From NCBI GenBank assembly GCA_000004985.1, contig GG738904.1: a stretch of 64,000 nt of DNA; one strand, written 5' to 3'. This document shows positions 1 through 35,070 of the stretch, one piece after another. This DNA is from Naegleria gruberi (lineage: Eukaryota). The translations under genes and the position numbers were made by a program. The notes below the pieces were generated by a model. It made no database searches and had not been told where the DNA came from. It saw nothing but the letters and a program-made list of their open reading frames with translations. Every line of letters begins with the position of its first letter. Position 1 is the stretch's first letter.

Positions 1-301
1 CCCAAACCCAAACCCAAACCCAAACCCAACCCAAACCCAAACCCAAACCCAAACCCAAACCCAAACCCAAACCCAAACCCAAACCCAAACCCAAACCCAA
101 CCCAAACCCAAACCCAAACCCAAACCCAAACCCAAACCCAAACCCAAACCCAAACCCAAACCCAAACCCAAACCCAAACCCAAACCCAAACCCAAACCCA
201 AACCCAAACCCAAACCCAAACCCAAACCCAAACCCAAACCCAAACCCAAACCCAAACCCAAACCCAAACCCAAACCCAAACCCAAACCCAAACCCAAACC
301 C
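1..301 (-). repeat. Terminal telomere array: (CCCAAA)n on the + strand, so the (TTTGGG)n G-strand runs toward the left end; about 50 units
   Basis: Direct reading shows perfect 6-nt periodicity from base 1. Two 5-nt CCCAA variant units lie near 25-29 and 96-100. The array ends abruptly at ...cccaaaccc|acgactaagg. The C-rich strand reading 5'->3' inward is the expected orientation for a left chromosome end. Confidence 0.9.
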
Positions 302-984
302 ACGACTAAGGTCAGACCCAACATTTTTACTTTTATTCATCTTAATTAATTATCTCAATAAATACTCATTATAAATCAATATATTATATATCAATATACT
401 CCAAATTGAATATATAATCATATAATAACATAATATTACATCATTATAATGACTTATATAAGTTAATTTCATATAATAGATTAGACAATTAGAATATCAA
501 TGAAAACATTTCAAATTCAATTCAAATAAATATATCACCTTGTGTATCATGTTAATAACAATATATATCAATTTCAAATACTTTGGTATCATTTCAGGAA
601 ATTAACTATTCAACTTGTCAACTGACCTATTCTAACATTGAAGATAGAATTCTGTTCCACTTCAATTCACTTCCAATACATATATACATGATAATAAAAT
701 ATATTAATATCATTTTGACATTCATCCATATTATACATGGTACATGGCTGATCCACTTGATACATACAGGATTGTGACATTGACATCTACTATACAGATC
801 ATTATGAAATTGATACAGTGCCTTACTAATGGTGAATAAACACTACTGTATCAGTTTCATGACAATTTGAAATCATTCAACATGTCAGGAGTGTAATCAT
901 GAGAATTATAAATGTCAAGATAATCAAATCATATTAAATTTAAAATCTTTCAATTACAATATCATATTTAGATCAATTAATCAT

Positions 985-3900
985 NNNNNNNNNNNNNNNN
1001 NNNNNNNNNNNNNNNNNNNNNNNNNNNNNNNNNNNNNNNNNNNNNNNNNNNNNNNNNNNNNNNNNNNNNNNNNNNNNNNNNNNNNNNNNNNNNNNNNNNN
1101 NNNNNNNNNNNNNNNNNNNNNNNNNNNNNNNNNNNNNNNNNNNNNNNNNNNNNNNNNNNNNNNNNNNNNNNNNNNNNNNNNNNNNNNNNNNNNNNNNNNN
1201 NNNNNNNNNNNNNNNNNNNNNNNNNNNNNNNNNNNNNNNNNNNNNNNNNNNNNNNNNNNNNNNNNNNNNNNNNNNNNNNNNNNNNNNNNNNNNNNNNNNN
1301 NNNNNNNNNNNNNNNNNNNNNNNNNNNNNNNNNNNNNNNNNNNNNNNNNNNNNNNNNNNNNNNNNNNNNNNNNNNNNNNNNNNNNNNNNNNNNNNNNNNN
1401 NNNNNNNNNNNNNNNNNNNNNNNNNNNNNNNNNNNNNNNNNNNNNNNNNNNNNNNNNNNNNNNNNNNNNNNNNNNNNNNNNNNNNNNNNNNNNNNNNNNN
1501 NNNNNNNNNNNNNNNNNNNNNNNNNNNNNNNNNNNNNNNNNNNNNNNNNNNNNNNNNNNNNNNNNNNNNNNNNNNNNNNNNNNNNNNNNNNNNNNNNNNN
1601 NNNNNNNNNNNNNNNNNNNNNNNNNNNNNNNNNNNNNNNNNNNNNNNNNNNNNNNNNNNNNNNNNNNNNNNNNNNNNNNNNNNNNNNNNNNNNNNNNNNN
1701 NNNNNNNNNNNNNNNNNNNNNNNNNNNNNNNNNNNNNNNNNNNNNNNNNNNNNNNNNNNNNNNNNNNNNNNNNNNNNNNNNNNNNNNNNNNNNNNNNNNN
1801 NNNNNNNNNNNNNNNNNNNNNNNNNNNNNNNNNNNNNNNNNNNNNNNNNNNNNNNNNNNNNNNNNNNNNNNNNNNNNNNNNNNNNNNNNNNNNNNNNNNN
1901 NNNNNNNNNNNNNNNNNNNNNNNNNNNNNNNNNNNNNNNNNNNNNNNNNNNNNNNNNNNNNNNNNNNNNNNNNNNNNNNNNNNNNNNNNNNNNNNNNNNN
2001 NNNNNNNNNNNNNNNNNNNNNNNNNNNNNNNNNNNNNNNNNNNNNNNNNNNNNNNNNNNNNNNNNNNNNNNNNNNNNNNNNNNNNNNNNNNNNNNNNNNN
2101 NNNNNNNNNNNNNNNNNNNNNNNNNNNNNNNNNNNNNNNNNNNNNNNNNNNNNNNNNNNNNNNNNNNNNNNNNNNNNNNNNNNNNNNNNNNNNNNNNNNN
2201 NNNNNNNNNNNNNNNNNNNNNNNNNNNNNNNNNNNNNNNNNNNNNNNNNNNNNNNNNNNNNNNNNNNNNNNNNNNNNNNNNNNNNNNNNNNNNNNNNNNN
2301 NNNNNNNNNNNNNNNNNNNNNNNNNNNNNNNNNNNNNNNNNNNNNNNNNNNNNNNNNNNNNNNNNNNNNNNNNNNNNNNNNNNNNNNNNNNNNNNNNNNN
2401 NNNNNNNNNNNNNNNNNNNNNNNNNNNNNNNNNNNNNNNNNNNNNNNNNNNNNNNNNNNNNNNNNNNNNNNNNNNNNNNNNNNNNNNNNNNNNNNNNNNN
2501 NNNNNNNNNNNNNNNNNNNNNNNNNNNNNNNNNNNNNNNNNNNNNNNNNNNNNNNNNNNNNNNNNNNNNNNNNNNNNNNNNNNNNNNNNNNNNNNNNNNN
2601 NNNNNNNNNNNNNNNNNNNNNNNNNNNNNNNNNNNNNNNNNNNNNNNNNNNNNNNNNNNNNNNNNNNNNNNNNNNNNNNNNNNNNNNNNNNNNNNNNNNN
2701 NNNNNNNNNNNNNNNNNNNNNNNNNNNNNNNNNNNNNNNNNNNNNNNNNNNNNNNNNNNNNNNNNNNNNNNNNNNNNNNNNNNNNNNNNNNNNNNNNNNN
2801 NNNNNNNNNNNNNNNNNNNNNNNNNNNNNNNNNNNNNNNNNNNNNNNNNNNNNNNNNNNNNNNNNNNNNNNNNNNNNNNNNNNNNNNNNNNNNNNNNNNN
2901 NNNNNNNNNNNNNNNNNNNNNNNNNNNNNNNNNNNNNNNNNNNNNNNNNNNNNNNNNNNNNNNNNNNNNNNNNNNNNNNNNNNNNNNNNNNNNNNNNNNN
3001 NNNNNNNNNNNNNNNNNNNNNNNNNNNNNNNNNNNNNNNNNNNNNNNNNNNNNNNNNNNNNNNNNNNNNNNNNNNNNNNNNNNNNNNNNNNNNNNNNNNN
3101 NNNNNNNNNNNNNNNNNNNNNNNNNNNNNNNNNNNNNNNNNNNNNNNNNNNNNNNNNNNNNNNNNNNNNNNNNNNNNNNNNNNNNNNNNNNNNNNNNNNN
3201 NNNNNNNNNNNNNNNNNNNNNNNNNNNNNNNNNNNNNNNNNNNNNNNNNNNNNNNNNNNNNNNNNNNNNNNNNNNNNNNNNNNNNNNNNNNNNNNNNNNN
3301 NNNNNNNNNNNNNNNNNNNNNNNNNNNNNNNNNNNNNNNNNNNNNNNNNNNNNNNNNNNNNNNNNNNNNNNNNNNNNNNNNNNNNNNNNNNNNNNNNNNN
3401 NNNNNNNNNNNNNNNNNNNNNNNNNNNNNNNNNNNNNNNNNNNNNNNNNNNNNNNNNNNNNNNNNNNNNNNNNNNNNNNNNNNNNNNNNNNNNNNNNNNN
3501 NNNNNNNNNNNNNNNNNNNNNNNNNNNNNNNNNNNNNNNNNNNNNNNNNNNNNNNNNNNNNNNNNNNNNNNNNNNNNNNNNNNNNNNNNNNNNNNNNNNN
3601 NNNNNNNNNNNNNNNNNNNNNNNNNNNNNNNNNNNNNNNNNNNNNNNNNNNNNNNNNNNNNNNNNNNNNNNNNNNNNNNNNNNNNNNNNNNNNNNNNNNN
3701 NNNNNNNNNNNNNNNNNNNNNNNNNNNNNNNNNNNNNNNNNNNNNNNNNNNNNNNNNNNNNNNNNNNNNNNNNNNNNNNNNNNNNNNNNNNNNNNNNNNN
3801 NNNNNNNNNNNNNNNNNNNNNNNNNNNNNNNNNNNNNNNNNNNNNNNNNNNNNNNNNNNNNNNNNNNNNNNNNNNNNNNNNNNNNNNNNNNNNNNNNNNN

Positions 3901-6105
3901 NNNNNNNNNNNNNNNNNNNNNNNNNNNNNNNNNNNNNNNNNNNNNNNNNNNNNNNNNNNNNNNNNNNNNNNNNNNNNNNNNNNNNNNNNNNNNNNNNNNN
4001 NNNNNNNNNNNNNNNNNNNNNNNNNNNNNNNNNNNNNNNNNNNNNNNNNNNNNNNNNNNNNNNNNNNNNNNNNNNNNNNNNNNNNNNNNNNNNNNNNNNN
4101 NNNNNNNNNNNNNNNNNNNNNNNNNNNNNNNNNNNNNNNNNNNNNNNNNNNNNNNNNNNNNNNNNNNNNNNNNNNNNNNNNNNNNNNNNNNNNNNNNNNN
4201 NNNNNNNNNNNNNNNNNNNNNNNNNNNNNNNNNNNNNNNNNNNNNNNNNNNNNNNNNNNNNNNNNNNNNNNNNNNNNNNNNNNNNNNNNNNNNNNNNNNN
4301 NNNNNNNNNNNNNNNNNNNNNNNNNNNNNNNNNNNNNNNNNNNNNNNNNNNNNNNNNNNNNNNNNNNNNNNNNNNNNNNNNNNNNNNNNNNNNNNNNNNN
4401 NNNNNNNNNNNNNNNNNNNNNNNNNNNNNNNNNNNNNNNNNNNNNNNNNNNNNNNNNNNNNNNNNNNNNNNNNNNNNNNNNNNNNNNNNNNNNNNNNNNN
4501 NNNNNNNNNNNNNNNNNNNNNNNNNNNNNNNNNNNNNNNNNNNNNNNNNNNNNNNNNNNNNNNNNNNNNNNNNNNNNNNNNNNNNNNNNNNNNNNNNNNN
4601 NNNNNNNNNNNNNNNNNNNNNNNNNNNNNNNNNNNNNNNNNNNNNNNNNNNNNNNNNNNNNNNNNNNNNNNNNNNNNNNNNNNNNNNNNNNNNNNNNNNN
4701 NNNNNNNNNNNNNNNNNNNNNNNNNNNNNNNNNNNNNNNNNNNNNNNNNNNNNNNNNNNNNNNNNNNNNNNNNNNNNNNNNNNNNNNNNNNNNNNNNNNN
4801 NNNNNNNNNNNNNNNNNNNNNNNNNNNNNNNNNNNNNNNNNNNNNNNNNNNNNNNNNNNNNNNNNNNNNNNNNNNNNNNNNNNNNNNNNNNNNNNNNNNN
4901 NNNNNNNNNNNNNNNNNNNNNNNNNNNNNNNNNNNNNNNNNNNNNNNNNNNNNNNNNNNNNNNNNNNNNNNNNNNNNNNNNNNNNNNNNNNNNNNNNNNN
5001 NNNNNNNNNNNNNNNNNNNNNNNNNNNNNNNNNNNNNNNNNNNNNNNNNNNNNNNNNNNNNNNNNNNNNNNNNNNNNNNNNNNNNNNNNNNNNNNNNNNN
5101 NNNNNNNNNNNNNNNNNNNNNNNNNNNNNNNNNNNNNNNNNNNNNNNNNNNNNNNNNNNNNNNNNNNNNNNNNNNNNNNNNNNNNNNNNNNNNNNNNNNN
5201 NNNNNNNNNNNNNNNNNNNNNNNNNNNNNNNNNNNNNNNNNNNNNNNNNNNNNNNNNNNNNNNNNNNNNNNNNNNNNNNNNNNNNNNNNNNNNNNNNNNN
5301 NNNNNNNNNNNNNNNNNNNNNNNNNNNNNNNNNNNNNNNNNNNNNNNNNNNNNNNNNNNNNNNNNNNNNNNNNNNNNNNNNNNNNNNNNNNNNNNNNNNN
5401 NNNNNNNNNNNNNNNNNNNNNNNNNNNNNNNNNNNNNNNNNNNNNNNNNNNNNNNNNNNNNNNNNNNNNNNNNNNNNNNNNNNNNNNNNNNNNNNNNNNN
5501 NNNNNNNNNNNNNNNNNNNNNNNNNNNNNNNNNNNNNNNNNNNNNNNNNNNNNNNNNNNNNNNNNNNNNNNNNNNNNNNNNNNNNNNNNNNNNNNNNNNN
5601 NNNNNNNNNNNNNNNNNNNNNNNNNNNNNNNNNNNNNNNNNNNNNNNNNNNNNNNNNNNNNNNNNNNNNNNNNNNNNNNNNNNNNNNNNNNNNNNNNNNN
5701 NNNNNNNNNNNNNNNNNNNNNNNNNNNNNNNNNNNNNNNNNNNNNNNNNNNNNNNNNNNNNNNNNNNNNNNNNNNNNNNNNNNNNNNNNNNNNNNNNNNN
5801 NNNNNNNNNNNNNNNNNNNNNNNNNNNNNNNNNNNNNNNNNNNNNNNNNNNNNNNNNNNNNNNNNNNNNNNNNNNNNNNNNNNNNNNNNNNNNNNNNNNN
5901 NNNNNNNNNNNNNNNNNNNNNNNNNNNNNNNNNNNNNNNNNNNNNNNNNNNNNNNNNNNNNNNNNNNNNNNNNNNNNNNNNNNNNNNNNNNNNNNNNNNN
6001 NNNNNNNNNNNNNNNNNNNNNNNNNNNNNNNNNNNNNNNNNNNNNNNNNNNNNNNNNNNNNNNNNNNNNNNNNNNNNNNNNNNNNNNNNNNNNNNNNNNN
6101 NNNNN
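985..6105. other. Assembly gap (5121 N)
   Basis: Run of n characters. Confidence 1.
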
Positions 6106-6107
6106 AC

Positions 6108-6539
6108 TCAATTTTACTAGGTAACGACAGTATTTGTGACAAATGTAATGTCAAGGAAGATTGGACCCACGTATTCCAAACTTGTCCCAAATGCAATCCT
6201 GAAAAGGATGAACTGTATGCCACATGGGACGCTATCTCCCAGAAATTTAGCCTTAACAAGATTCGTTTCCCTCCTGATATCTCAGAATCCTCTCAACTTA
6301 GGATAGAATTTGATGGTCGTTGCTCCCGTAATGACTGGCTTAACTGGTCTAAGCGCAAAAGAATACCTAAGAATGTGGCCCTAGAAGTCTACAAAGCACT
6401 AGCTATTTATTTGGAAAATTGCTACAAGAACTCAGTGTGGTACAACCGTCCCAATGCAGGCTTCACTATTAACAGGAAATACCTCTCTGCCTACCACAGG
6501 CAGGCTCAGTCTAACCAACCACTTAGCGTCAACCCATAA
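6108..6539 (+). mobile_element. 3' end of a non-LTR (LINE-like) retrotransposon ORF2: C-terminal zinc-binding (zf-RVT type) region; the rest of the element is lost in the gap
   Basis: An open frame runs out of the gap to TAA at 6537-6539. It translates as SILLGNDSICDKCNVKEDWTHVFQTCPKCNPEKDELYATWDAI... The C-x2-C-x3-ED-x2-H-x-F-x2-CP pattern is typical of the Cys/His motif that ends non-LTR RT ORFs. GC content is visibly higher than the flanks. Confidence 0.6.
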
Positions 6540-6610
6540 CACTTAAACGCTGAACCGAAACTTACTGGTTGTAGACCTCGTCTCTCAGGTCTTTACGATA
6601 CAAGAGACGT
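6540..6610 (+). mobile_element. Retroelement 3' UTR with a conserved hairpin core (agacc-N9-ggtct)
   Basis: The sequence cttaaacgctgaaccgaaacttactggttgtagacctcgtctctcaggtct recurs in inverted orientation at 19304-19365. Confidence 0.5.
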
Positions 6611-7305
6611 TAATAAAATCACAATTTACTTTTGCAGGTTCTACCACTTCTTGATTACTAGCAAGCTTCAACTCCATTTCACTTAGTCTTGAAAGAAGTA
6701 CATCCATGTTCGCAATATTCCTTCTTGATTTGACTCTAGCTGTACCATTATTCCTGCAAGACTCAACATCTTCCGACTCAGATGAAGAAGGAGAGGATGA
6801 CGAGGAGTCGGTTCTTCTAGAGTGATTCAGAGGAATACTCTGGCTTGTGCTTCCCGAGTCTGAATGATGATGTCTACCAAATTGTCAACTGACCTATCAG
6901 AAGGTAGTTGAATGCCCATTGATTCAATGAGTTCCTCTAATTGATCAATAGAGCACTCTGATAATTCATTTCTTGATTTAAAATACATCTTTCGGAATTA
7001 ATTTGAGACTTCAAGGTATAAATGGGAAGTAGAATCAACAAGTGTTAAAACCATCTTTTATTACACAAAACAAAAGAAATATCCAATTGTCACAATTGAA
7101 CAATACAATAGATTGAAACTTTTCCAAATTACCATTTGAATCGGGAAGTGATGATGATTTTAGTGAACAATATTAAATTTCACTAAAATATTAATATTAT
7201 CAGATTTCCACAAATATTACTATTATAATGATGATAAATAACAATGATGATGGTTGGTAGTTGTTCCGATGTGATGGAACACGGTAGTATCTGGAATTGA
7301 AAAAA

Positions 7306-7513
7306 ATGACTCAAGTCTCTAAAGGTTTGTGTAATGATCAAAGTTTGCTAATAATTGTAATAGAAATATTTTCTGATGATGTAATTTATGAAATTATTTC
7401 CTATTTATGTGATGATTGGAAATTCGTATTATTAAATTGCGTAATGGTAACAAAACAATGGTTGAACGTCATCCGAGATCGATCCGAGCTTTCAATGATG
7501 GCGAATAATCATT
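7306..7513 (+). CDS. F-box-like protein, N-terminal fragment truncated by the gap
   Basis: ATG at 7306. The peptide ...QSLLIIVIEIFSDDVIYEIISYLCDDWKFVLLNCVMVTKQWLNVI fits the F-box pattern (L..E.L..I..YL......L..V.K.W). The frame runs into N at 7514. Confidence 0.45.
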
Positions 7514-10500
7514 NNNNNNNNNNNNNNNNNNNNNNNNNNNNNNNNNNNNNNNNNNNNNNNNNNNNNNNNNNNNNNNNNNNNNNNNNNNNNNNNNNNNNNN
7601 NNNNNNNNNNNNNNNNNNNNNNNNNNNNNNNNNNNNNNNNNNNNNNNNNNNNNNNNNNNNNNNNNNNNNNNNNNNNNNNNNNNNNNNNNNNNNNNNNNNN
7701 NNNNNNNNNNNNNNNNNNNNNNNNNNNNNNNNNNNNNNNNNNNNNNNNNNNNNNNNNNNNNNNNNNNNNNNNNNNNNNNNNNNNNNNNNNNNNNNNNNNN
7801 NNNNNNNNNNNNNNNNNNNNNNNNNNNNNNNNNNNNNNNNNNNNNNNNNNNNNNNNNNNNNNNNNNNNNNNNNNNNNNNNNNNNNNNNNNNNNNNNNNNN
7901 NNNNNNNNNNNNNNNNNNNNNNNNNNNNNNNNNNNNNNNNNNNNNNNNNNNNNNNNNNNNNNNNNNNNNNNNNNNNNNNNNNNNNNNNNNNNNNNNNNNN
8001 NNNNNNNNNNNNNNNNNNNNNNNNNNNNNNNNNNNNNNNNNNNNNNNNNNNNNNNNNNNNNNNNNNNNNNNNNNNNNNNNNNNNNNNNNNNNNNNNNNNN
8101 NNNNNNNNNNNNNNNNNNNNNNNNNNNNNNNNNNNNNNNNNNNNNNNNNNNNNNNNNNNNNNNNNNNNNNNNNNNNNNNNNNNNNNNNNNNNNNNNNNNN
8201 NNNNNNNNNNNNNNNNNNNNNNNNNNNNNNNNNNNNNNNNNNNNNNNNNNNNNNNNNNNNNNNNNNNNNNNNNNNNNNNNNNNNNNNNNNNNNNNNNNNN
8301 NNNNNNNNNNNNNNNNNNNNNNNNNNNNNNNNNNNNNNNNNNNNNNNNNNNNNNNNNNNNNNNNNNNNNNNNNNNNNNNNNNNNNNNNNNNNNNNNNNNN
8401 NNNNNNNNNNNNNNNNNNNNNNNNNNNNNNNNNNNNNNNNNNNNNNNNNNNNNNNNNNNNNNNNNNNNNNNNNNNNNNNNNNNNNNNNNNNNNNNNNNNN
8501 NNNNNNNNNNNNNNNNNNNNNNNNNNNNNNNNNNNNNNNNNNNNNNNNNNNNNNNNNNNNNNNNNNNNNNNNNNNNNNNNNNNNNNNNNNNNNNNNNNNN
8601 NNNNNNNNNNNNNNNNNNNNNNNNNNNNNNNNNNNNNNNNNNNNNNNNNNNNNNNNNNNNNNNNNNNNNNNNNNNNNNNNNNNNNNNNNNNNNNNNNNNN
8701 NNNNNNNNNNNNNNNNNNNNNNNNNNNNNNNNNNNNNNNNNNNNNNNNNNNNNNNNNNNNNNNNNNNNNNNNNNNNNNNNNNNNNNNNNNNNNNNNNNNN
8801 NNNNNNNNNNNNNNNNNNNNNNNNNNNNNNNNNNNNNNNNNNNNNNNNNNNNNNNNNNNNNNNNNNNNNNNNNNNNNNNNNNNNNNNNNNNNNNNNNNNN
8901 NNNNNNNNNNNNNNNNNNNNNNNNNNNNNNNNNNNNNNNNNNNNNNNNNNNNNNNNNNNNNNNNNNNNNNNNNNNNNNNNNNNNNNNNNNNNNNNNNNNN
9001 NNNNNNNNNNNNNNNNNNNNNNNNNNNNNNNNNNNNNNNNNNNNNNNNNNNNNNNNNNNNNNNNNNNNNNNNNNNNNNNNNNNNNNNNNNNNNNNNNNNN
9101 NNNNNNNNNNNNNNNNNNNNNNNNNNNNNNNNNNNNNNNNNNNNNNNNNNNNNNNNNNNNNNNNNNNNNNNNNNNNNNNNNNNNNNNNNNNNNNNNNNNN
9201 NNNNNNNNNNNNNNNNNNNNNNNNNNNNNNNNNNNNNNNNNNNNNNNNNNNNNNNNNNNNNNNNNNNNNNNNNNNNNNNNNNNNNNNNNNNNNNNNNNNN
9301 NNNNNNNNNNNNNNNNNNNNNNNNNNNNNNNNNNNNNNNNNNNNNNNNNNNNNNNNNNNNNNNNNNNNNNNNNNNNNNNNNNNNNNNNNNNNNNNNNNNN
9401 NNNNNNNNNNNNNNNNNNNNNNNNNNNNNNNNNNNNNNNNNNNNNNNNNNNNNNNNNNNNNNNNNNNNNNNNNNNNNNNNNNNNNNNNNNNNNNNNNNNN
9501 NNNNNNNNNNNNNNNNNNNNNNNNNNNNNNNNNNNNNNNNNNNNNNNNNNNNNNNNNNNNNNNNNNNNNNNNNNNNNNNNNNNNNNNNNNNNNNNNNNNN
9601 NNNNNNNNNNNNNNNNNNNNNNNNNNNNNNNNNNNNNNNNNNNNNNNNNNNNNNNNNNNNNNNNNNNNNNNNNNNNNNNNNNNNNNNNNNNNNNNNNNNN
9701 NNNNNNNNNNNNNNNNNNNNNNNNNNNNNNNNNNNNNNNNNNNNNNNNNNNNNNNNNNNNNNNNNNNNNNNNNNNNNNNNNNNNNNNNNNNNNNNNNNNN
9801 NNNNNNNNNNNNNNNNNNNNNNNNNNNNNNNNNNNNNNNNNNNNNNNNNNNNNNNNNNNNNNNNNNNNNNNNNNNNNNNNNNNNNNNNNNNNNNNNNNNN
9901 NNNNNNNNNNNNNNNNNNNNNNNNNNNNNNNNNNNNNNNNNNNNNNNNNNNNNNNNNNNNNNNNNNNNNNNNNNNNNNNNNNNNNNNNNNNNNNNNNNNN
10001 NNNNNNNNNNNNNNNNNNNNNNNNNNNNNNNNNNNNNNNNNNNNNNNNNNNNNNNNNNNNNNNNNNNNNNNNNNNNNNNNNNNNNNNNNNNNNNNNNNNN
10101 NNNNNNNNNNNNNNNNNNNNNNNNNNNNNNNNNNNNNNNNNNNNNNNNNNNNNNNNNNNNNNNNNNNNNNNNNNNNNNNNNNNNNNNNNNNNNNNNNNNN
10201 NNNNNNNNNNNNNNNNNNNNNNNNNNNNNNNNNNNNNNNNNNNNNNNNNNNNNNNNNNNNNNNNNNNNNNNNNNNNNNNNNNNNNNNNNNNNNNNNNNNN
10301 NNNNNNNNNNNNNNNNNNNNNNNNNNNNNNNNNNNNNNNNNNNNNNNNNNNNNNNNNNNNNNNNNNNNNNNNNNNNNNNNNNNNNNNNNNNNNNNNNNNN
10401 NNNNNNNNNNNNNNNNNNNNNNNNNNNNNNNNNNNNNNNNNNNNNNNNNNNNNNNNNNNNNNNNNNNNNNNNNNNNNNNNNNNNNNNNNNNNNNNNNNNN

Positions 10501-13500
10501 NNNNNNNNNNNNNNNNNNNNNNNNNNNNNNNNNNNNNNNNNNNNNNNNNNNNNNNNNNNNNNNNNNNNNNNNNNNNNNNNNNNNNNNNNNNNNNNNNNNN
10601 NNNNNNNNNNNNNNNNNNNNNNNNNNNNNNNNNNNNNNNNNNNNNNNNNNNNNNNNNNNNNNNNNNNNNNNNNNNNNNNNNNNNNNNNNNNNNNNNNNNN
10701 NNNNNNNNNNNNNNNNNNNNNNNNNNNNNNNNNNNNNNNNNNNNNNNNNNNNNNNNNNNNNNNNNNNNNNNNNNNNNNNNNNNNNNNNNNNNNNNNNNNN
10801 NNNNNNNNNNNNNNNNNNNNNNNNNNNNNNNNNNNNNNNNNNNNNNNNNNNNNNNNNNNNNNNNNNNNNNNNNNNNNNNNNNNNNNNNNNNNNNNNNNNN
10901 NNNNNNNNNNNNNNNNNNNNNNNNNNNNNNNNNNNNNNNNNNNNNNNNNNNNNNNNNNNNNNNNNNNNNNNNNNNNNNNNNNNNNNNNNNNNNNNNNNNN
11001 NNNNNNNNNNNNNNNNNNNNNNNNNNNNNNNNNNNNNNNNNNNNNNNNNNNNNNNNNNNNNNNNNNNNNNNNNNNNNNNNNNNNNNNNNNNNNNNNNNNN
11101 NNNNNNNNNNNNNNNNNNNNNNNNNNNNNNNNNNNNNNNNNNNNNNNNNNNNNNNNNNNNNNNNNNNNNNNNNNNNNNNNNNNNNNNNNNNNNNNNNNNN
11201 NNNNNNNNNNNNNNNNNNNNNNNNNNNNNNNNNNNNNNNNNNNNNNNNNNNNNNNNNNNNNNNNNNNNNNNNNNNNNNNNNNNNNNNNNNNNNNNNNNNN
11301 NNNNNNNNNNNNNNNNNNNNNNNNNNNNNNNNNNNNNNNNNNNNNNNNNNNNNNNNNNNNNNNNNNNNNNNNNNNNNNNNNNNNNNNNNNNNNNNNNNNN
11401 NNNNNNNNNNNNNNNNNNNNNNNNNNNNNNNNNNNNNNNNNNNNNNNNNNNNNNNNNNNNNNNNNNNNNNNNNNNNNNNNNNNNNNNNNNNNNNNNNNNN
11501 NNNNNNNNNNNNNNNNNNNNNNNNNNNNNNNNNNNNNNNNNNNNNNNNNNNNNNNNNNNNNNNNNNNNNNNNNNNNNNNNNNNNNNNNNNNNNNNNNNNN
11601 NNNNNNNNNNNNNNNNNNNNNNNNNNNNNNNNNNNNNNNNNNNNNNNNNNNNNNNNNNNNNNNNNNNNNNNNNNNNNNNNNNNNNNNNNNNNNNNNNNNN
11701 NNNNNNNNNNNNNNNNNNNNNNNNNNNNNNNNNNNNNNNNNNNNNNNNNNNNNNNNNNNNNNNNNNNNNNNNNNNNNNNNNNNNNNNNNNNNNNNNNNNN
11801 NNNNNNNNNNNNNNNNNNNNNNNNNNNNNNNNNNNNNNNNNNNNNNNNNNNNNNNNNNNNNNNNNNNNNNNNNNNNNNNNNNNNNNNNNNNNNNNNNNNN
11901 NNNNNNNNNNNNNNNNNNNNNNNNNNNNNNNNNNNNNNNNNNNNNNNNNNNNNNNNNNNNNNNNNNNNNNNNNNNNNNNNNNNNNNNNNNNNNNNNNNNN
12001 NNNNNNNNNNNNNNNNNNNNNNNNNNNNNNNNNNNNNNNNNNNNNNNNNNNNNNNNNNNNNNNNNNNNNNNNNNNNNNNNNNNNNNNNNNNNNNNNNNNN
12101 NNNNNNNNNNNNNNNNNNNNNNNNNNNNNNNNNNNNNNNNNNNNNNNNNNNNNNNNNNNNNNNNNNNNNNNNNNNNNNNNNNNNNNNNNNNNNNNNNNNN
12201 NNNNNNNNNNNNNNNNNNNNNNNNNNNNNNNNNNNNNNNNNNNNNNNNNNNNNNNNNNNNNNNNNNNNNNNNNNNNNNNNNNNNNNNNNNNNNNNNNNNN
12301 NNNNNNNNNNNNNNNNNNNNNNNNNNNNNNNNNNNNNNNNNNNNNNNNNNNNNNNNNNNNNNNNNNNNNNNNNNNNNNNNNNNNNNNNNNNNNNNNNNNN
12401 NNNNNNNNNNNNNNNNNNNNNNNNNNNNNNNNNNNNNNNNNNNNNNNNNNNNNNNNNNNNNNNNNNNNNNNNNNNNNNNNNNNNNNNNNNNNNNNNNNNN
12501 NNNNNNNNNNNNNNNNNNNNNNNNNNNNNNNNNNNNNNNNNNNNNNNNNNNNNNNNNNNNNNNNNNNNNNNNNNNNNNNNNNNNNNNNNNNNNNNNNNNN
12601 NNNNNNNNNNNNNNNNNNNNNNNNNNNNNNNNNNNNNNNNNNNNNNNNNNNNNNNNNNNNNNNNNNNNNNNNNNNNNNNNNNNNNNNNNNNNNNNNNNNN
12701 NNNNNNNNNNNNNNNNNNNNNNNNNNNNNNNNNNNNNNNNNNNNNNNNNNNNNNNNNNNNNNNNNNNNNNNNNNNNNNNNNNNNNNNNNNNNNNNNNNNN
12801 NNNNNNNNNNNNNNNNNNNNNNNNNNNNNNNNNNNNNNNNNNNNNNNNNNNNNNNNNNNNNNNNNNNNNNNNNNNNNNNNNNNNNNNNNNNNNNNNNNNN
12901 NNNNNNNNNNNNNNNNNNNNNNNNNNNNNNNNNNNNNNNNNNNNNNNNNNNNNNNNNNNNNNNNNNNNNNNNNNNNNNNNNNNNNNNNNNNNNNNNNNNN
13001 NNNNNNNNNNNNNNNNNNNNNNNNNNNNNNNNNNNNNNNNNNNNNNNNNNNNNNNNNNNNNNNNNNNNNNNNNNNNNNNNNNNNNNNNNNNNNNNNNNNN
13101 NNNNNNNNNNNNNNNNNNNNNNNNNNNNNNNNNNNNNNNNNNNNNNNNNNNNNNNNNNNNNNNNNNNNNNNNNNNNNNNNNNNNNNNNNNNNNNNNNNNN
13201 NNNNNNNNNNNNNNNNNNNNNNNNNNNNNNNNNNNNNNNNNNNNNNNNNNNNNNNNNNNNNNNNNNNNNNNNNNNNNNNNNNNNNNNNNNNNNNNNNNNN
13301 NNNNNNNNNNNNNNNNNNNNNNNNNNNNNNNNNNNNNNNNNNNNNNNNNNNNNNNNNNNNNNNNNNNNNNNNNNNNNNNNNNNNNNNNNNNNNNNNNNNN
13401 NNNNNNNNNNNNNNNNNNNNNNNNNNNNNNNNNNNNNNNNNNNNNNNNNNNNNNNNNNNNNNNNNNNNNNNNNNNNNNNNNNNNNNNNNNNNNNNNNNNN

Positions 13501-13723
13501 NNNNNNNNNNNNNNNNNNNNNNNNNNNNNNNNNNNNNNNNNNNNNNNNNNNNNNNNNNNNNNNNNNNNNNNNNNNNNNNNNNNNNNNNNNNNNNNNNNNN
13601 NNNNNNNNNNNNNNNNNNNNNNNNNNNNNNNNNNNNNNNNNNNNNNNNNNNNNNNNNNNNNNNNNNNNNNNNNNNNNNNNNNNNNNNNNNNNNNNNNNNN
13701 NNNNNNNNNNNNNNNNNNNNNNN
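7514..13723. other. Assembly gap (6210 N)
   Basis: Run of n characters. Confidence 1.
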
Positions 13724-14154
13724 CCCTAACCCAAACCCAAACCCAAAGCCAAACCCAAACCCAAACCCAAACCCAAACCCAAGCCCAAACCCAAACCCAA
13801 ACCCAAACCCAAACCCAAACCCAAACCCAAACCCAAACCCAAACCCAAACCCAAACCCAAACCCAAACCCAAACCCAAACCCAAACCCAAACCCAAACCC
13901 AAACCCAAACCCAACCCAAACCCAAACCCAAACCCAAACCCAAACCCAAACCCAAACCCAAACCCAAACCCAAACCCAAACCCAAACCCAAACCCAAACC
14001 CAAACCCAAACCCAAACCCAAACCCAAACCCAAACCCAAACCCAAACCCAAACCCAAACCCAAACCCAAACCCAAACCCAAACCCAAACCCAAACCCAAA
14101 CCCAAACCCAAACCCAAACCCAAACCCAAACCCAAACCCAAACCCAAACCCAAA
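13724..14154 (-). repeat. Second, internal telomere-type array, (CCCAAA)n of about 72 units, in the same orientation as the terminal array
   Basis: It starts immediately after the gap. Variant units (ccctaa, caaagc, caagcc, one cccaa) sit in the left part. It is perfect up to the junction ...cccaaac|taaaaatag. Degenerate telomere-like remnants (aaacccaacgttcaaaccctagccc) follow to about 14200. Confidence 0.9.
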
Positions 14155-15022
14155 CTAAAAATAGAATTCTTCTAAACCCAACGTTCAAACCCTAGCCCAA
14201 AATTATAAACTTATTCAAATATCATTAAATTTTATATCATTCGATTGGAAATTATGAGTAGAACAACGTGGTATATTTAGTTTTTCAATTTATAAAATAT
14301 TAAATTTGTTAATAATGTCAGATTAAAATTTCATAAATGAAACTATAGGAAGAATGATAATTTCAAAATCGTTTAATGAGATTATATAGTCAATATCATC
14401 ATTAACAACATTCATAATCACTTTCATATGAAATTTCAAAGGTTCATGTCTGTAGATATAAAAGTATCAAGTGAAAAGGGAAGATGTGAGGTAAAAGAGG
14501 TCAACAATAACTTTTGAGTTTCTCATCAAAACATATTGAATCCTAATATGAAAATGTTCCATTTGATGATTAAACATCGAATATCAAATTTATTTTGACT
14601 TTCATATTTACAGATTTCTTCCCTCAATCACACATGGTCAACTTGTATGAAAAGGAGGAAATCTTGAAAAAGGACCACCTATTGAAACTTTACCATCATG
14701 ATGTAGATGATATATAATGATGTAGAATTCAATTTCATATCATAAGAATTAGAAATGGTACCATGGGAATGTAAATGTTGATTTTCCAAAGTTGACTGAN
14801 AGGAAAGACAAGTCAGACCAAGTCTATCAAATATATCACTTCAATCAACAAATTATACATGAAAATGCTCCATTCGATGNNNNNNNNNNNNNNNNNNNNN
14901 NNNNNNNNNNNNNNNNNNNNNNNNNNNNNCATGAGTGCAGAACTGAGTTATTCAAAATTTGTGAATGTTCGGTCCAGTCAAATCAAAGATGGGTTCTTAA
15001 CTACCCATAGGTTTGCATTCTT

Positions 15023-16101
15023 CTAGATATTATTGAGCACATTCTCCATCTCTATTCTTTCAATTTCCTCCGTTGTAAAGTTTCCTTTCATTGGAATAAA
15101 CACATGATCGTAAAAGGCCTTGAACCAATAACTCACTGGACAACATCTATTAAAATTCTCTTCAGAGCCTGTATGTACTCCTATTACTGATCGATCAAGA
15201 ATTACATTCTCCTTAAAGTCTCTCCAATTGCTATAATTTTCACAACAAGGAAGAACAGCACCGCCTGAAGAGCCTGGAAATGAGCTGGCGTTATAGTGTT
15301 TACAACATGTTTTTTCGTTAGTATCAACAAATTTTCCAAAGCTAATATTTTTACACTCCAACTCAAACATACTCTTTAAGGCAATAAGATTTGTGTGATA
15401 ATCTAAATGTTGTTCTAAAGTTGTTACATCTTTCTCAGTTGGCATGCCTTGAAAGGAAAGAATAGACATGTTATAATCATGTTCTGATTGAGGGTTGAGC
15501 TTTGAAGGACTTGGAATAAGGTATGATTCTGGAAAATGTTGTTCATCTAATACTATATCGATTGGTACTTCCATTTTCATCAAAACCCAATCTTTGTTTG
15601 GATGTTCCTTTACATTTTCATCCTCTTTCAGATCTGATTTTGCAAGAATGGTGCAATTCATGGATCTGGCACTTAACGGCTCAAACCTATGATTCTTCCC
15701 TAAAATTCCTTTAATCATTCTTAAAGAAAGTTGCACTACTTCATTATTGTATTCATATTCAAAAGGAAGAGTGTTATGCAAGCATGTCACAAAGTAATAT
15801 TCCCAAATAGTGTCGAGTTTGTTTGGAGGAGCAACAAGGAAGCCAGAACCCCGAATTGGAACTCTAACATCAATTTGTTTAGAATTAACACCTTGATAAA
15901 AACAAACTACATCAACAACAGCATTAAAAACATCCAGATTATCCTTTGCAGATTTTAAATCATAACAACTACAAATTCTGGGATAGGTTGTTAATCGGAA
16001 GGGATTGAGGCAACCTGTTAAATCCTCAAAACAATTCCTTGATTTTTCATCAACAATTAACATCTCCTCCGACACAGTGGTAGAGTACTTATTCATCGAT
16101 G
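15023..16101 (-). CDS. Trypsin-fold (S1/PA clan) serine peptidase-like protein, paralog A; its 5' end abuts a 50-N gap
   Basis: Candidate catalytic triad: YYFVTCLHN (His), KDWVLMKM (Asp, compare DIALLKL) and FPGSSGGAV (GxSGG Ser). It is about 95% identical to paralog B. No signal peptide is evident. Confidence 0.65.
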
Positions 16102-16810
16102 NNNNNNNNNNNNNNNNNNNNNNNNNNNNNNNNNNNNNNNNNNNNNNNNNNTTCTGTATACATTATTATAATCGTAATACCTTGCAATACCAATAAAACT
16201 CAATAGAAGAATTAATTCTTCTCATTTTCAAATAGATTATTCAATATAGAACAGATCTAGATAGTTTCCAGATCATAAAAGTCAAGCTACTATATATGGT
16301 CTTTGATTAAATTTAAAAATAGACTGCCGTTGATTACTGGAATCTTGATTCAAAGCTTGTTGATCAACCTATTGATTGAAATCAAACCGATTATTGAATA
16401 TTGAATTGGTGAATAATCACTCTTGATACTGCTACATATTTCAGATTGCATGCAAATCAACCTGATTCAATCTTCAAAGGTTGGTAGTTGCACCACTACG
16501 TGGCGAAACTACCCATCCACGATCAATCAACATTAGATTCACTTCCATTCAACTCAATTTGACCGTTATAATCAATAAATCAATGAAATGTTCCTTTATT
16601 AGCAATACATATTCAATCTAACGAGTAGATTCACGTCCCAAACATTTGACTTCTCAAAGTCCATAATTCAAAAGTTAGTTCTGACCTGACCTTTAAATAT
16701 CTATCAATACAAGAAATGAAACCATCAAATTTACATCATTAATAGATGATAAGAAATATAATCAATGATATGAATCTTCACTAAGTAATCTCTTAAATAA
16801 CCCAAATAAA

Positions 16811-17851
16811 TCAACTCTGAATCCTAACCAAACCCTCTATTCTTTCAATTTCCTCCGTTGTAAAGTTTCCTTTCATTGAAACAAACACATGATCGTAAAA
16901 GGCCTTGAACCAATAACTCACTGGACAACATCTATTAAAATTCTCTTCAGAGCCTATATGTATTCCTATTACTGATCTATCAAGAATAACATTCTCCTTA
17001 AAGTCTCTCCAATTGCTATAATTTTCACAACAAGGCACCACAGCACCGCCTGAAGAGCCTGGAAATGAGCTGGCGTTATAGTTACATGTTTTTTCGTTAG
17101 TATCAACAAATTTTCCAAAGCTAATATTTTTACACTCCAACTCAAACATACTCTTTAAGGCAATAAGATTTGTGTGATGTTCTGATTGAGGGTTGAGCTT
17201 TGAAGGACTTGGAATAAGGTATGATTCTGGAAAATATTGTTCATCCAATACTACATCAATTGGCACTTCCATTTTCATCAAAACCCAATCATTGTTTGGA
17301 TGTTTCTTTACATTTTCATCTTCTTTCAGACCTGATTTTGCAAGAATGGTGCAATTCATAGATCTGGTACTTAATGGCTCAAACCTATGATTCTTCCCTA
17401 AAATTCCTTTCATCATTCTTAAAGAAAGTTGCACTACTTCATTATTGTATTCATATTCAAAAGGAAGAGTGTTATGCAAGCATGTCACAAAGTAATATTC
17501 CCAAATAGTGTCGAGTTTGTTTGGAGGAGCAACAAGGAAGCCAGAACCACGAATTGGAACTCTAACATCAATTTGTTTAGAATTAATACCTTGATAAAAA
17601 CAAACTACATCAACAACAGCATTAAAAACATCCAGATTATCCTTTGCAGATTTTAAATCATAATAACTACAAATTCTGGGATAGGTTGTTAATCGGAAGG
17701 GATTGAGGCAACCTGTTAAATCCTCAAAACAATTCCTTGATTTTTCATCAACAATTAACATCTCCTCCGACACAGTGGTAGAGTACTTATTCATCGATGG
17801 TTTCATAATTTCAATGTCATTGATTGGAATAGATTCTGCTGGTGAGAACAT
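16811..17851 (-). CDS. Trypsin-fold serine peptidase-like protein, paralog B (tandem duplicate of A)
   Basis: ATG at 17851, 346 aa, with the same H/D/S motifs as A. Relative to A it has an in-frame 81-nt deletion (27 aa, DYNMSILSFQGMPTEKDVTTLEQHLDY), a 6-nt indel, and a different last 7-8 codons. Confidence 0.7.
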   Translation of the reverse strand: MFSPAESIPINDIEIMKPSMNKYSTTVSEEMLIVDEKSRNCFEDLTGCLNPFRLTTYPRICSYYDLKSAKDNLDVFNAVVDVVCFYQGINSKQIDVRVPIRGSGFLVAPPNKLDTIWEYYFVTCLHNTLPFEYEYNNEVVQLSLRMMKGILGKNHRFEPLSTRSMNCTILAKSGLKEDENVKKHPNNDWVLMKMEVPIDVVLDEQYFPESYLIPSPSKLNPQSEHHTNLIALKSMFELECKNISFGKFVDTNEKTCNYNASSFPGSSGGAVVPCCENYSNWRDFKENVILDRSVIGIHIGSEENFNRCCPVSYWFKAFYDHVFVSMKGNFTTEEIERIEGLVRIQS

Positions 17852-17998
17852 TCTGCTAATTTTTTTTAAGCTCTCTTGTTGGTATTAAGGTATTAAGAAT
17901 AAGCACTTCTGCATCAACGTTCATCACAACAGCCATTAAATCACAATATTTATCACTGCAATATTTCAGGTGGAACAAAAAAATACCGTTGCGCAGTC

Positions 17999-19303: not shown

Positions 19304-19365
19304 CGGAGACCTTTTAATTAAGACGAGGTCTACAACCATTAGGTTTTCGTTTAAGCGTTCTTCAA
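19304..19365 (-). mobile_element. 5'-truncated copy of the retroelement 3' UTR, inverted relative to 6540-6610
   Basis: The reverse complement reads acgcttaaacgaaaacctaatggttgtagacctcgtcttaattaaaaggtctccgtta. It shares the 17-mer ggttgtagacctcgtct and the agacc/ggtct hairpin with 6543-6600. It starts directly after the stop codon of protease C. Confidence 0.55.
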
Positions 19366-33081: not shown

Positions 33082-34089
33082 ATGACTAGTCAAGAGAGTA
33101 ATGATGGATCAATTTCCTATGGATGGTGGATTGCCACTCTTTTAATAGGAATTGTCCTGATGAGAATATTGCAATTAATTATGAAATTGAAAAGACAAAT
33201 AAGCAAGGCTGGTGGAACTCCTGGTTATTGGCAATTATTGGCTGAAGGCTTGTTTATCATGCCAATTCTTTCGCCCTATATTGCTCATGGTAATTTCCCA
33301 GTGATTCAAGGATTGATTGCTAAGGAGGAAGAGAGAGCTAAGGGAAGTGATGAAAAGCAATTGATTATTCGTGTCAGTACTCCCTATAGAAATAATTATG
33401 TAATTTGGGATAAGGATTCAGTGAAGGAAGTTTTAGTTACAAAATCATCATCCTTTCCAAAACCTTTGGATTTTTATGAACCTTTCAATATTTTCGATAA
33501 GGATGCTACTTCAATTTTGACAGCTGCCGATGGTCCAGTTTGGAAGAATCATAGACATGTGGTGGCTCCTTCATTCTCAACTGGTAATTTGGTTTTTATG
33601 AGTCAAGTGACTGTAAAGACAGTTGATGCATTGTTTAGAACAAAGTGGAATAAGTTATTGGACCAGGATAGTAAGGGATTCATTATGGATATGGAAGATA
33701 CTACAGCTGTCACTCTTCAAATTATTGGTGAAAGTGGATTTGGTATGGATTTTGGTGTTTTCGATGAAACTAGCTCTGATTCTAAAAAGTTTAGAGAAGC
33801 ATTGAATATTGTCGTGAGAGTTGACTATTATGCCAGATTCTTCCTTGCTAAAATCCCATTCCTTTACAATGCAGTTTCTGATTATACTGGAAATACAGAA
33901 GCTCTCAAGGTGATGAGTGAAAAGCTTGAACAATGCATTTCTCAAAGAGTAGCCGAATTCAAACAAGATCCAGAAAAACCAATGAATGATTTATTGTCGC
34001 TCCTTGTTAAGGCAAACATGATGGATGAAAAACTCACACTCAATGAATTGAAGAGTAACAGTTACATCTTCGTAGTTGCAGGTCATGAG
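33082..34089 (+). CDS. Cytochrome P450 (copy 1), 5' portion, ending inside the I-helix motif ...FVVAGHE; interrupted by a 5.09-kb insertion
   Basis: N-terminal TM anchor (WWIATLLIGIVLMRIL) and an alignable paralog at 55239. The frame reads gca ggt cat gag then tat tga. The missing continuation TTATTMQW... is found at 39234. Confidence 0.8.
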
Positions 34090-34618: not shown

Positions 34619-34675
34619 ATTGGTAATGAGTAAATTGAATTGTGTCTGTGCAATTCTGATTGTATTCTTGTAAAG

Positions 34676-35070
34676 TGGTGATGGTACCTGTCAGGTACCG
34701 TCACAGGTACTTGGCAGGTACGATTTTTACCATCACAGGTACCGTCACAGGTACTTGGCAGGTATCACAGGTACCATCAGGTACCATCAGGTACCATCAC
34801 AGGTACCGTCACAGGTGCAAATGGTACCTGACAAGTACAATCACAGGTACCGTCACAGGTATCTGAATTTCCTCACAGGTACCATCACAGGTACTTGGCA
34901 GGTATCACAGGTACCATCACAGGTACCATCACAGGTACCGTCACAAGTACTTGGACCATCACAAGTACCCTTACAAGGACTTGTAAGGTGCTCAACACGT
35001 ACCTACAGTGTCTGACAAGTATGGTACCTCACAATAACCATCACAGCTACAACAAACACCATAACAAATA
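34676..35070. repeat. Degenerate minisatellite, about 12-bp unit CACAGGTACC(R)T with a palindromic GGTACC core, about 28-30 units
   Basis: Direct reading: ...ggtaccgtcacaggtacttggcaggta...ggtaccatcacaggtaccatcacaggtaccgtcaca... It lies between the convergent 3' ends of ORF 34085-34618 and gene 35100-36299. Confidence 0.85.

What the first reader, a model, noticed from the sequence alone, without database searches (positions are those of the whole stretch)
1..14200. Two telomere arrays in the same orientation, 13.4 kb apart
A terminal (CCCAAA)n array at 1-301 and a second array of more than 430 bp at 13724-14154 have the same polarity, as if two left chromosome ends were stacked. The second array starts exactly at a contig edge after a 6.2-kb gap. 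Its variant units (ccctaa, caaagc, caagcc) are on the distal side, and degenerate telomere-like remnants follow at 14160-14200. One explanation is a scaffolding mis-join of two telomeric contigs through repeat-containing mate pairs. The other is a real interstitial telomere left when an old chromosome end was extended by about 13 kb of retroelement-bearing DNA and re-capped.
Basis: partly seen in the sequence, partly recalled or inferred. Interest (0 to 1): 0.55.

Follow-up and report, generated by a model that had tools for sequence, protein, structure and literature searches.

The report
Two chromosome-end versions threaded into one scaffold
Both telomere arrays are real Naegleria gruberi (TTTGGG)n telomeres, but their stacking 13.4 kb apart is most likely an artefact of a draft assembly that threaded two versions of one chromosome end into a single scaffold, not an internal telomere.

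Summary
(CCCAAA)n runs at 1-301 (50.7 units) and at 13724-14154 (72.2 units), both C-rich on the + strand, and the second starts right after a 6,210-N gap.

The window is the left end of a 297,120-bp Naegleria gruberi NEG-M draft scaffold. TTTGGG is that species' published candidate telomere repeat.

No sequence shows array 2 to be internal:
- 11,331 of the first 13,723 bases are N.
- The only sequence left of it is two read-sized contigs (984 and 1,408 bp).
- Its three substitution variants all lie in the first 60 bases of its contig, so they look like read-edge errors.
- Its inner 371 bp are perfect apart from one CCCAA unit.

The 'tandem twin' gene contig 14930-16101, bounded by 50-N gaps, behaves as the other allele (or a collapsed paralogous copy) of 16835-17799. 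A 98%-identical wild relative has one gene with this contig's left flank and the other copy's upstream flank, and the tree is ((Y,relative),X).

Best reading: a short version (array 2 - 14155-14879 - 16152...) and a long version (array 1 - LINE - F-box fragment - ... - 14930-16101) were interleaved.

A real interstitial telomere is not excluded (about 0.2). Existing nanopore reads would settle it.

The parts
1..301 (+). Telomere array 1, (CCCAAA)n, C-strand reading inward; the end of the scaffold and proposed end of the long version (X)
   Evidence: 50.7 copies, two CCCAA units at 25 and 96, abrupt junction CCCAAACCCA|CGACTAAGG
302..984 (.). AT-rich non-coding subtelomere of contig 1 (GC 23.9%); the whole contig is read-sized (984 bp)
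   Evidence: no similarity to anything else in the window; longest stop-free run is 72 codons
985..6105 (.). Gap of 5,121 N, presumably holding the body of the LINE
   Evidence: The LINE tail starts at the first base after the gap. The size fits a 5-6 kb LINE (inference)
6106..6583 (+). 3' end of a young multi-copy LINE: ORF2 C-terminus with CCHC motif (6108-6539) plus 3' UTR to 6583
   Evidence: 99-100% identical to C-termini of four other N. gruberi proteins on other scaffolds; the 3' boundary is set by the copy at 19321-19359; weak endonuclease/RRM hits in P0130
6585..7000 (-). Small orphan ORF with an apparent frameshift near 6880 (possible low-coverage sequence)
   Evidence: no homologue found
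7306..7513 (+). Start of an F-box-like ORF cut by the gap
   Evidence: no homologue and no Pfam hit. 'F-box-like' is my reading of the sequence only
7514..13723 (.). Gap of 6,210 N; no sequence joins contig 2 to array 2
13724..14154 (+). Telomere array 2, (CCCAAA)n; proposed true terminus of the short version (Y)
   Evidence: 72.2 copies; the three substitutions all lie in 13724-13783; 13784-14154 is perfect apart from one CCCAA
14155..14879 (.). Subtelomere of Y: degenerate telomere remnants at 14173-14201, then AT-rich non-coding DNA (GC 26.5% over 14155-14799); single N at 14800
14930..16101 (-). Contig X between two 50-N gaps: gene copy A (ORF 15023-16096) with the ancestral 3' flank 14930-15049; proposed other allele of 16835-17799
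16152..16834 (.). Y-specific flank, unrelated to X's flank and to the relative; left edge of the 43.6-kb contig
16835..17970 (-). Gene copy B (ORF 16811-17851) and its upstream region, which the relative also has; B carries a private 81-bp deletion and a changed C-terminus
19321..19359 (-). 39-nt fragment of the same LINE 3' end, at an internal, non-telomeric position

Best explanation
Both arrays are ordinary telomerase-made (TTTGGG)n telomeres of Naegleria gruberi. Each caps a different version of the same chromosome end.

Version Y (short) runs: array 2 - 14155-14879 - 16152-16834 - gene B - shared chromosome.

Version X (long, ancestral layout) runs: array 1 - 0.7 kb AT-rich DNA - a full-length LINE (gap 1) - small ORF - F-box-like gene - roughly 7 kb unsequenced - 14930-15049 - gene A - shared chromosome.

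X and Y are alleles in a heterozygous diploid, or a collapsed near-identical duplicate. They are too different left of about 17.8 kb to be merged and alike enough to the right to be collapsed.

The mate-pair scaffolder therefore laid the contigs of both versions along one line. That puts Y's telomere 'inside' X's distal sequence.

What is shown:
- the arrays and the gaps;
- the homology between X and Y and where it stops;
- the relative's single-gene layout;
- the tree.

What is inferred:
- that contigs 1 and 2 belong to X;
- that the 50-N gaps are placeholders;
- that Y arose by a break in the 3' end of the gene followed by acquisition of a new subtelomere and telomere.
For: Source of the window:
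- Exact ORF products equal N. gruberi NEG-M proteins EFC38788, EFC38868 and EFC38869 on a 297,120-bp scaffold.
- TTTGGG is the published candidate telomere repeat of this species (PMC3622300).

Nothing shows array 2 to be internal:
- It starts at a contig edge after 6,210 N, and 83% of the 13.7 kb to its left is N.
- Its only substitutions lie in its first 60 bases.
- The inner 371 bp are as clean as terminal array 1, although a relative differs from this genome by 1.8%.
- Degenerate repeats sit on its proximal side, followed by AT-rich non-coding DNA, the same layout as at array 1.

Contig X (14930-16101):
- It sits between two 50-N gaps.
- It matches 16835-17799 at 95-97% identity, right up to its own right edge.

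Comparison with the ENA relative:
- Contig L002 carries one gene.
- It is flanked on one side by Y's upstream region (160/164 matches).
- It is flanked on the other side by X's left flank (109/113 matches).
- It keeps the 81 bp that Y lacks.

Divergence over 965 sites:
- X-Y is 2.69%, X-relative 3.21% and Y-relative 1.35%.
- So X and Y are not recent tandem twins.
- X-Y divergence falls from 9/150 to 1/150 towards the point where the X contig stops. That fits collapse of the two versions further right.

Other support:
- The relative's next 164 bp beyond X's flank match nothing in the window, including 14801-14879.
- Naegleria is described as a heterozygous diploid, with heterozygosity reported for N. 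gruberi (PMC9928731).
- Large internal telomere blocks are common in draft assemblies.
Against: - No read or mate-pair data were reachable, so the assignment of contigs 1 and 2 to version X is inferred.
- 2.7% is high for allelic divergence.
- The relative's contig comes from a metagenome assembly and could be a collapsed or chimeric copy.
- A tandem pair plus an unequal crossover in the relative, within the last 45 bp or so of the homology, would also fit the site pattern.
- Both large gap sizes (5.1 and 6.2 kb) fit clones of about 6-8 kb. If such clones have unique reads on both sides of array 2, they would mean real linkage.
Confidence: 0.5

Rival explanations
1. Real interstitial telomere. 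The scaffold order is physically true: an old chromosome end at 14155 was extended by about 13.7 kb (break-induced replication or capture of another end, with a LINE insertion) and re-capped. This left a long internal (CCCAAA)n tract.
For: - Same polarity of the two arrays, with old-looking degenerate repeats proximal to array 2.
- Both gap estimates fit one clone library, as real linkage would (inference).
- A false join in this orientation is not easily produced by telomere-only reads (my reasoning).
- Internal telomere blocks exist in many genomes.
Against: - No read crosses the left edge of array 2, and no contig ends in the array from the left.
- There are no substitutions in the inner 371 bp, which would be unusual for an internalised tract.
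- Gene A would lack the upstream region that the relative's gene has, because 16152+ is unrelated to it.
- The relative's sequence beyond X's flank does not match 14801-14879.
- The tree ((Y,relative),X) with a single gene in the relative needs extra events.
- The LINE is a dispersed type that does not abut telomere repeats.
Confidence: 0.22
2. Plain mis-join of two unrelated chromosome ends. Contigs 1 and 2 come from another chromosome and were attached by chimeric clones or misplaced repeat reads. The gene pair A/B is a true local duplication.
For: - Contigs 1 and 2 are read-sized and share nothing with the rest of the window.
- A third of contig 2 is a LINE with at least 5 copies at 99% identity, which invites read misplacement.
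- Array 2 looks terminal.
Against: - For a link to place contig 2 to the left of array 2, a misplaced read would have to come from a LINE copy or paralogue lying distal to a telomere. None is evident.
- The first gene right of array 2 has no dispersed paralogues.
- This model does not explain the X contig or the relative's layout.
Confidence: 0.18
3. Terminal truncation healed exactly at 14155. One homologue was broken at 14155 and telomerase added a new telomere there. The other homologue continues into the gap, and the assembler kept the telomere reads.
For: - Telomere-like seed sequences lie just inside 14155.
- Naegleria is described as a heterozygous diploid.
Against: - The X/Y homology boundary is at 15050/16835, not at 14155.
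- The 14155-14879 and 16152-16834 segments have no counterpart in X or in the relative.
- The degenerate repeats look like an established junction.
Confidence: 0.05

Closest known systems
Uncollapsed or interleaved haplotype contigs in draft assemblies of heterozygous genomes
   Same: - A short contig, near-identical to adjacent sequence, is bounded by small fixed-size gaps.
- Its homology runs to the contig edge.
- An outgroup comparison shows one locus, not two.
   Different: Here the two versions differ in their whole terminal segment and each brings its own telomere. The artefact therefore mimics stacked chromosome ends.
Interstitial telomeric sequences in subtelomeres (for example TG1-3 tracts between yeast Y' elements, or human subtelomeric TTAGGG islands)
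   Same: Same-polarity telomere repeats lie a few kb inside a terminal array, with subtelomeric and mobile DNA between them.
   Different: - Known examples are flanked by sequenced DNA on both sides.
- They are usually short or degenerate.
- Here the left flank is an N gap and the tract is long and clean.
Telomere-targeted retrotransposon arrays (Drosophila HeT-A/TART, Bombyx SART/TRAS, Magnaporthe MoTeR, rotifer Athena)
   Same: A non-LTR element lies next to a telomere, with its 3' end pointing towards the centromere.
   Different: - The 3' end abuts ordinary sequence, not telomere repeats.
- Copies occur on at least five scaffolds and as an internal fragment.
- A related copy carries an endonuclease-like domain.

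Membership tests
Terminal telomere array of N. gruberi | Tandem array of the species' repeat unit (TTTGGG/CCCAAA) | tested here: met
   repeat unit from PMC3622300
Terminal telomere array of N. gruberi | C-rich strand reads 5'->3' from the end inward | tested here: met
   Both arrays are CCCAAA on the + strand, with unique DNA to their right
Terminal telomere array of N. gruberi | Clean distal repeats, with degenerate variants only at the proximal junction | tested here: met
   Array 2: 13784-14154 is clean and remnants lie at 14173-14201. Array 1: clean, with an abrupt junction
Terminal telomere array of N. gruberi | Lies at the physical end of the DNA molecule (Bal31-sensitive; reads end in the repeat) | not testable with these tools
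   Array 1 is at the scaffold end and array 2 at a contig edge. No read or wet-lab data were available
Interstitial telomeric sequence | Non-telomeric sequence read contiguously on both sides of the tract | tested here: not met
   The left side is 6,210 N, and no contig enters the array from the left
Interstitial telomeric sequence | Resistance to Bal31, or long reads spanning the tract | not testable with these tools
   Nanopore data exist (PMC12695648) but could not be reached
Telomere-specific retrotransposon array | Element termini directly joined to telomere repeats | tested here: not met
   The 3' end at 6583 is followed by an unrelated ORF, and the second copy at 19321-19359 is also flanked by ordinary DNA. 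The 5' end lies in the gap and is untestable
Telomere-specific retrotransposon array | Copies confined to chromosome ends | tested here: inconclusive
   There are copies on scaffolds of 196,593, 712,659, 3,081, 351,708 and 418,085 bp, and one is fused to an EGF-repeat gene model. Their positions within those scaffolds are unknown. One fragment lies about 5 kb inside array 2
Interleaved haplotype contigs (assembly artefact) | Gap-bounded short contig, near-identical to neighbouring sequence, with homology reaching the contig edge | tested here: met
   14930-16101 against 16835-17799 at 95-97% identity, up to 16101/17799
Interleaved haplotype contigs (assembly artefact) | Outgroup shows a single locus whose flanks combine those of the two copies; the copies are not each other's closest relatives | tested here: met
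   L002 carries U flank + gene + X flank. X-Y 2.69%, Y-relative 1.35%. Caveat: L002 is a single metagenome contig
Interleaved haplotype contigs (assembly artefact) | About half read depth on each version; mates of X reads fall in the shared contig | not testable with these tools
   No reads available

The most novel reading that the evidence does not exclude
The scaffold order is real. N. gruberi would then carry a long, still-perfect interstitial (TTTGGG)n tract, created when an established chromosome end was recently extended by about 13.7 kb of captured subtelomeric DNA with a young LINE and then re-capped. That would be a snapshot of chromosome-end growth by stacking in a heterolobosean.
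Probability: 0.2. Interest if true: 0.45.

Novelty: not a real feature. Interest (0 to 1): 0.2.

Why it matters
As an artefact, it matters mainly for anyone using the 2010 N. gruberi reference.

- The first 16 kb or so of this scaffold should not be read as one molecule.
- The 'tandem' gene pair at 15-18 kb is probably one locus with two alleles.
- Counts of internal telomere blocks in this assembly are inflated.

The biology underneath is modest but real if confirmed. The two homologues of one chromosome would end differently. One would be broken inside a gene's 3' end and re-capped with a different subtelomere. The other would carry a young LINE 0.7 kb from its telomere. That gives a concrete locus for studying chromosome-end turnover in Naegleria, whose telomeres have never been examined experimentally.

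Tried and rejected
Routes that led nowhere:
- Looked for the N. gruberi assembly or an independent one by exact protein look-up. The ORFs at 17999-19303, 15023-16096 and 16811-17851, and LINE proteins P0126 and P0127, are not in the contig index.
- Scanned JGI metagenome contigs for the array-2 junction 23-mer and for a degenerate F-box motif. No hits.
- Searched for homologues of the F-box fragment and the small minus-strand ORF, to recover what lies in gap 2. None anywhere.
- Looked for an overlap between 14879 and 16152. None.
- The Cell 2010 genome paper and the supplement of PMC3622300 were not held.

Ideas tested and dropped:
- Shared subtelomeric repeats could have misled the scaffolder. 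Contig 1 (302-984) and 14155-14799 share no alignable sequence, and k-mer sharing is within control range.
- The retroelement is telomere-specific. Rejected: it is dispersed, its 3' end is not on telomere repeats, and a copy has an endonuclease-like domain.
- It is a tRNA-targeted element. No tRNA genes occur in the window.
- Contig 1 holds the LINE N-terminus. tblastn with P0130 found only the tail.
- A weak match of the P0129 N-terminus to 14655-14699 (E = 0.56) was judged to be chance.
Full report
**1. What is in the sequence**

Direct reading and a gap map show the contig layout of the first 16 kb:

| Coordinates | Content |
|---|---|
| 1-984 | contig 1 (984 bp) |
| 985-6105 | 5,121 N |
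| 6106-7513 | contig 2 (1,408 bp) |
| 7514-13723 | 6,210 N |
| 13724-14799 | contig 3 (1,076 bp) |
| 14800 | single N |
| 14801-14879 | 79-bp contig |
| 14880-14929 | 50 N |
| 14930-16101 | contig X (1,172 bp) |
| 16102-16151 | 50 N |
| 16152-59749 | 43.6-kb contig |

Tandem Repeats Finder gives (CCCAAA)50.7 at 1-302 and (CCCAAA)72.2 at 13724-14155. An 18-mer search finds 120 matches, all on the + strand and all inside these two arrays, against 0.04 expected by chance.

Unit-by-unit parsing shows:
- Array 1 has 49 perfect units plus CCCAA at 25 and 96.
- Array 2 has CCCTAA at 13724, GCCAAA at 13748, CCCAAG at 13778, CCCAA at 13910 and 68 perfect units.
- Telomere-like remnants follow at 14173-14201.

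The one caveat is that the 13.4-kb spacing is 83% N.

**2. Where the window comes from**

A malic-enzyme ORF is 81% identical to the N. fowleri protein. Three ORF products are exact matches to N. gruberi NEG-M proteins EFC38788, EFC38868 and EFC38869, all on one 297,120-bp scaffold. The window is therefore the left 64 kb of a scaffold of the 2010 draft assembly.

Fulneckova et al. 2013 (PMC3622300) named TTTGGG as the candidate N. gruberi telomere from scaffold ends. They also noted that most assemblies with terminal repeats contain internal blocks too.

**3. Content of the distal 13.7 kb**

Contig 1, after the array, is 683 bp of AT-rich (23.9% GC) non-coding DNA.

Contig 2 opens inside the C-terminal 143 codons of a non-LTR retrotransposon ORF2 with a CCHC motif.
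- This tail is 99-100% identical to the C-termini of four other annotated N. gruberi proteins, on scaffolds of 196,593, 712,659, 3,081 and 351,708 bp.
- It is about 60% identical to a fifth, on a 418,085-bp scaffold.
- One of these proteins, P0130, is a chimeric gene model. It also carries an RRM-like ORF1 and an Exo_endo_phos_2 hit, both below Pfam's cut-offs.
- The 3' end of the element is at 6583, defined by a 39-nt copy at 19321-19359 on the other strand. It abuts an unrelated small ORF, not telomere repeats.

The retroelement is therefore a young, dispersed LINE with an endonuclease-like domain. The 5.1-kb gap is about the right size for its body.

The small minus-strand ORF and the F-box-like ORF start at 7306 have no homologue anywhere.

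**4. Is array 2 internal?**

No sequence says so. The array begins at a contig edge, and no contig enters it from the left.

Its three substitutions all lie within the first 60 bases of the contig. Low-quality read ends would put them there. In a real telomere, variants accumulate on the proximal side.

The inner 371 bp contain no substitution. By comparison, a wild relative differs from this genome by 1.8%.

On its proximal side the array has degenerate remnants and then roughly 650-870 bp of AT-rich non-coding DNA before the first gene. Array 1 has the same layout.

These features are those of a maintained terminal array.

**5. The key to the scaffold structure is contig X (14930-16101)**

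Three observations argue against that.
- X is bounded by two 50-N gaps.
- Its homology to 16835-17799 (95-97% identity) runs to its very last base on the right.
- The homology stops sharply on the left at 15050/16835, eight codons before the stop.

An ENA metagenome sample (ERZ929261) contains a Naegleria about 98% identical to NEG-M. Its 1,486-bp contig L002 carries one copy of this gene. L002 contains:
- the upstream region that in the window precedes copy B (17970-17800, 160/164 matches);
- the 81 bp that copy B lacks;
- the left flank of X (15049-14932, 109/113 matches);
- 164 bp more that match nothing in the window.

Over 965 shared sites the divergences are:

| Pair | Divergence |
|---|---|
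| X-Y | 2.69% |
| X-relative | 3.21% |
| Y-relative | 1.35% |

X has 25 private substitutions and a private 6-bp indel. Y has about four private substitutions (read from the site pattern), a private 81-bp deletion and a private replacement of its flank.

A recent tandem duplication would give ((X,Y),relative). The data give ((Y,relative),X). X-Y divergence also falls from 9/150 to 1/150 towards the point where the X contig ends. That is what one expects if the two versions were merged from there on.

The simplest reading is that X and Y are two versions of one locus. They could be alleles in a heterozygous diploid, which is how Naegleria is described (PMC9928731), or a collapsed near-identical duplicate.

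**6. Resulting model**

- Version Y: array 2 - 14155-14879 - (small gap) - 16152-16834 - gene B - shared sequence.
- Version X: array 1 - contig 1 - LINE - contig 2 - about 7 kb unsequenced - 14930-15049 - gene A - shared sequence.

The scaffolder places contigs by mate distance. It would lay both sets along one line, with placeholder gaps around X. This would produce two left ends 'stacked' in the same polarity.

The model accounts for:
- the stacking itself;
- the missing left flank of array 2;
- the odd 'tandem' pair whose spacer is unrelated to the gene's real upstream region;
- the fragmentation of 13.7-16.2 kb.

On this reading, Y is the derived end. It would have been broken within the 3' end of the gene and joined to a different subtelomere and telomere.

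The assignment of contigs 1 and 2 to X, and the meaning of the 50-N gaps, are inferences.

**7. Rivals**

*Real interstitial telomere (about 0.22).* This remains possible. A false join in this orientation is not trivially produced by telomere-only reads, and both large gap sizes would fit a single clone library of about 6-8 kb. It would, however, need all of the following:
- a long internal tract with no substitutions;
- gene A without its upstream region;
- an extra event in the relative, either an unequal crossover within the last 45 bp or so of homology or an old duplication followed by loss;
- a 14880-14929 gap larger than 164 bp.

*Plain mis-join of unrelated ends (about 0.18).* This lacks a repeat that could mediate it. 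The first gene inside array 2 has no dispersed paralogues. It also leaves the X contig unexplained.

*Healing exactly at 14155 (about 0.05).* This does not fit the homology boundary at 15050/16835.

**8. Comparison with known systems**

The arrays themselves are ordinary members of the published N. gruberi telomere type. The interstitial-telomere definition fails on the one feature testable here, which is sequence on both sides. The telomere-specific retrotransposon idea fails at the element's 3' junction. The structure meets all the testable features of uncollapsed-haplotype interleaving.

**9. Verdict**

The feature as an architectural element of the genome is probably not real.

A nanopore re-assembly and its reads already exist for N. 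gruberi (PMC12695648) and would decide the matter in minutes. They could not be reached with these tools.

Interest is low (0.2). The residual novel reading, a recent chromosome-end extension leaving a pristine internal telomere, has a probability of about 0.2 and moderate interest.

Noticed in passing
window 34090-39233: This 5,144-bp segment is absent from the 98%-identical ENA relative (L001). It splits a cytochrome P450 gene between codons (N-half ORF 33082-34095, C-half ORF 39213-39842). It has 2-bp AG microhomology at both edges and is not a GT-AG intron. It holds three ORFs, one with three Myb repeats (36591-37871), and a 12-bp-period tandem repeat at 34683-34950. No terminal inverted repeats were found. 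It looks like a mobile-element or gene-cassette insertion.
   Followed up: partly
window 19321-19359 (- strand): A 39-nt fragment (87% identical) of the LINE 3' terminus sits directly downstream of ORF 17999-19303. It defines the LINE 3' end as ...TGGTTGTAGACCTCGTCT, with no poly(A) tail.
   Followed up: partly
window 25-29, 96-100, 13910-13914: The same 5-base variant unit CCCAA (TTGGG) occurs in both arrays: 2 of 51 units in array 1 and 1 of 72 in array 2. It could be telomerase slippage or a Sanger compression artefact.
   Followed up: no
window 16811-17851 versus 15023-16096: Gene copy B has a private in-frame 81-bp deletion (27 codons, at 17176/17177) and a replaced C-terminus (...IEGLVRIQS instead of ...IEMENVLNNI). 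The relative keeps the A-type structure. The protein family has no Pfam hit and no homologue outside Naegleria.
   Followed up: partly
loci L001 and L002 (ENA ERZ929261, run ERR1078381, PRJEB11402): An environmental metagenome assembly contains a Naegleria 96-98% identical to N. gruberi NEG-M at the DNA level. It is useful as an outgroup for structural checks of the reference.
   Followed up: partly
protein P0130 (EFC41040, on a 351,708-bp N. gruberi scaffold): This annotated 1,920-aa 'predicted protein' is a chimeric gene model. It fuses an EGF-repeat host protein to LINE ORF1, endonuclease and C-terminal parts.
   Followed up: no
window 6585-7000 (- strand): A small serine-rich ORF is split by an apparent frameshift near 6880. 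It may be a sequencing error in a low-coverage contig.
   Followed up: no
window 57575-57687 and 59035-59197: Short tandem repeats with periods of 27 and 12/24/48 bp (AAGAACACTGTG..., ACACCAACAAAA...) lie near ORFs on either side of the 1,170-N gap region.
   Followed up: no
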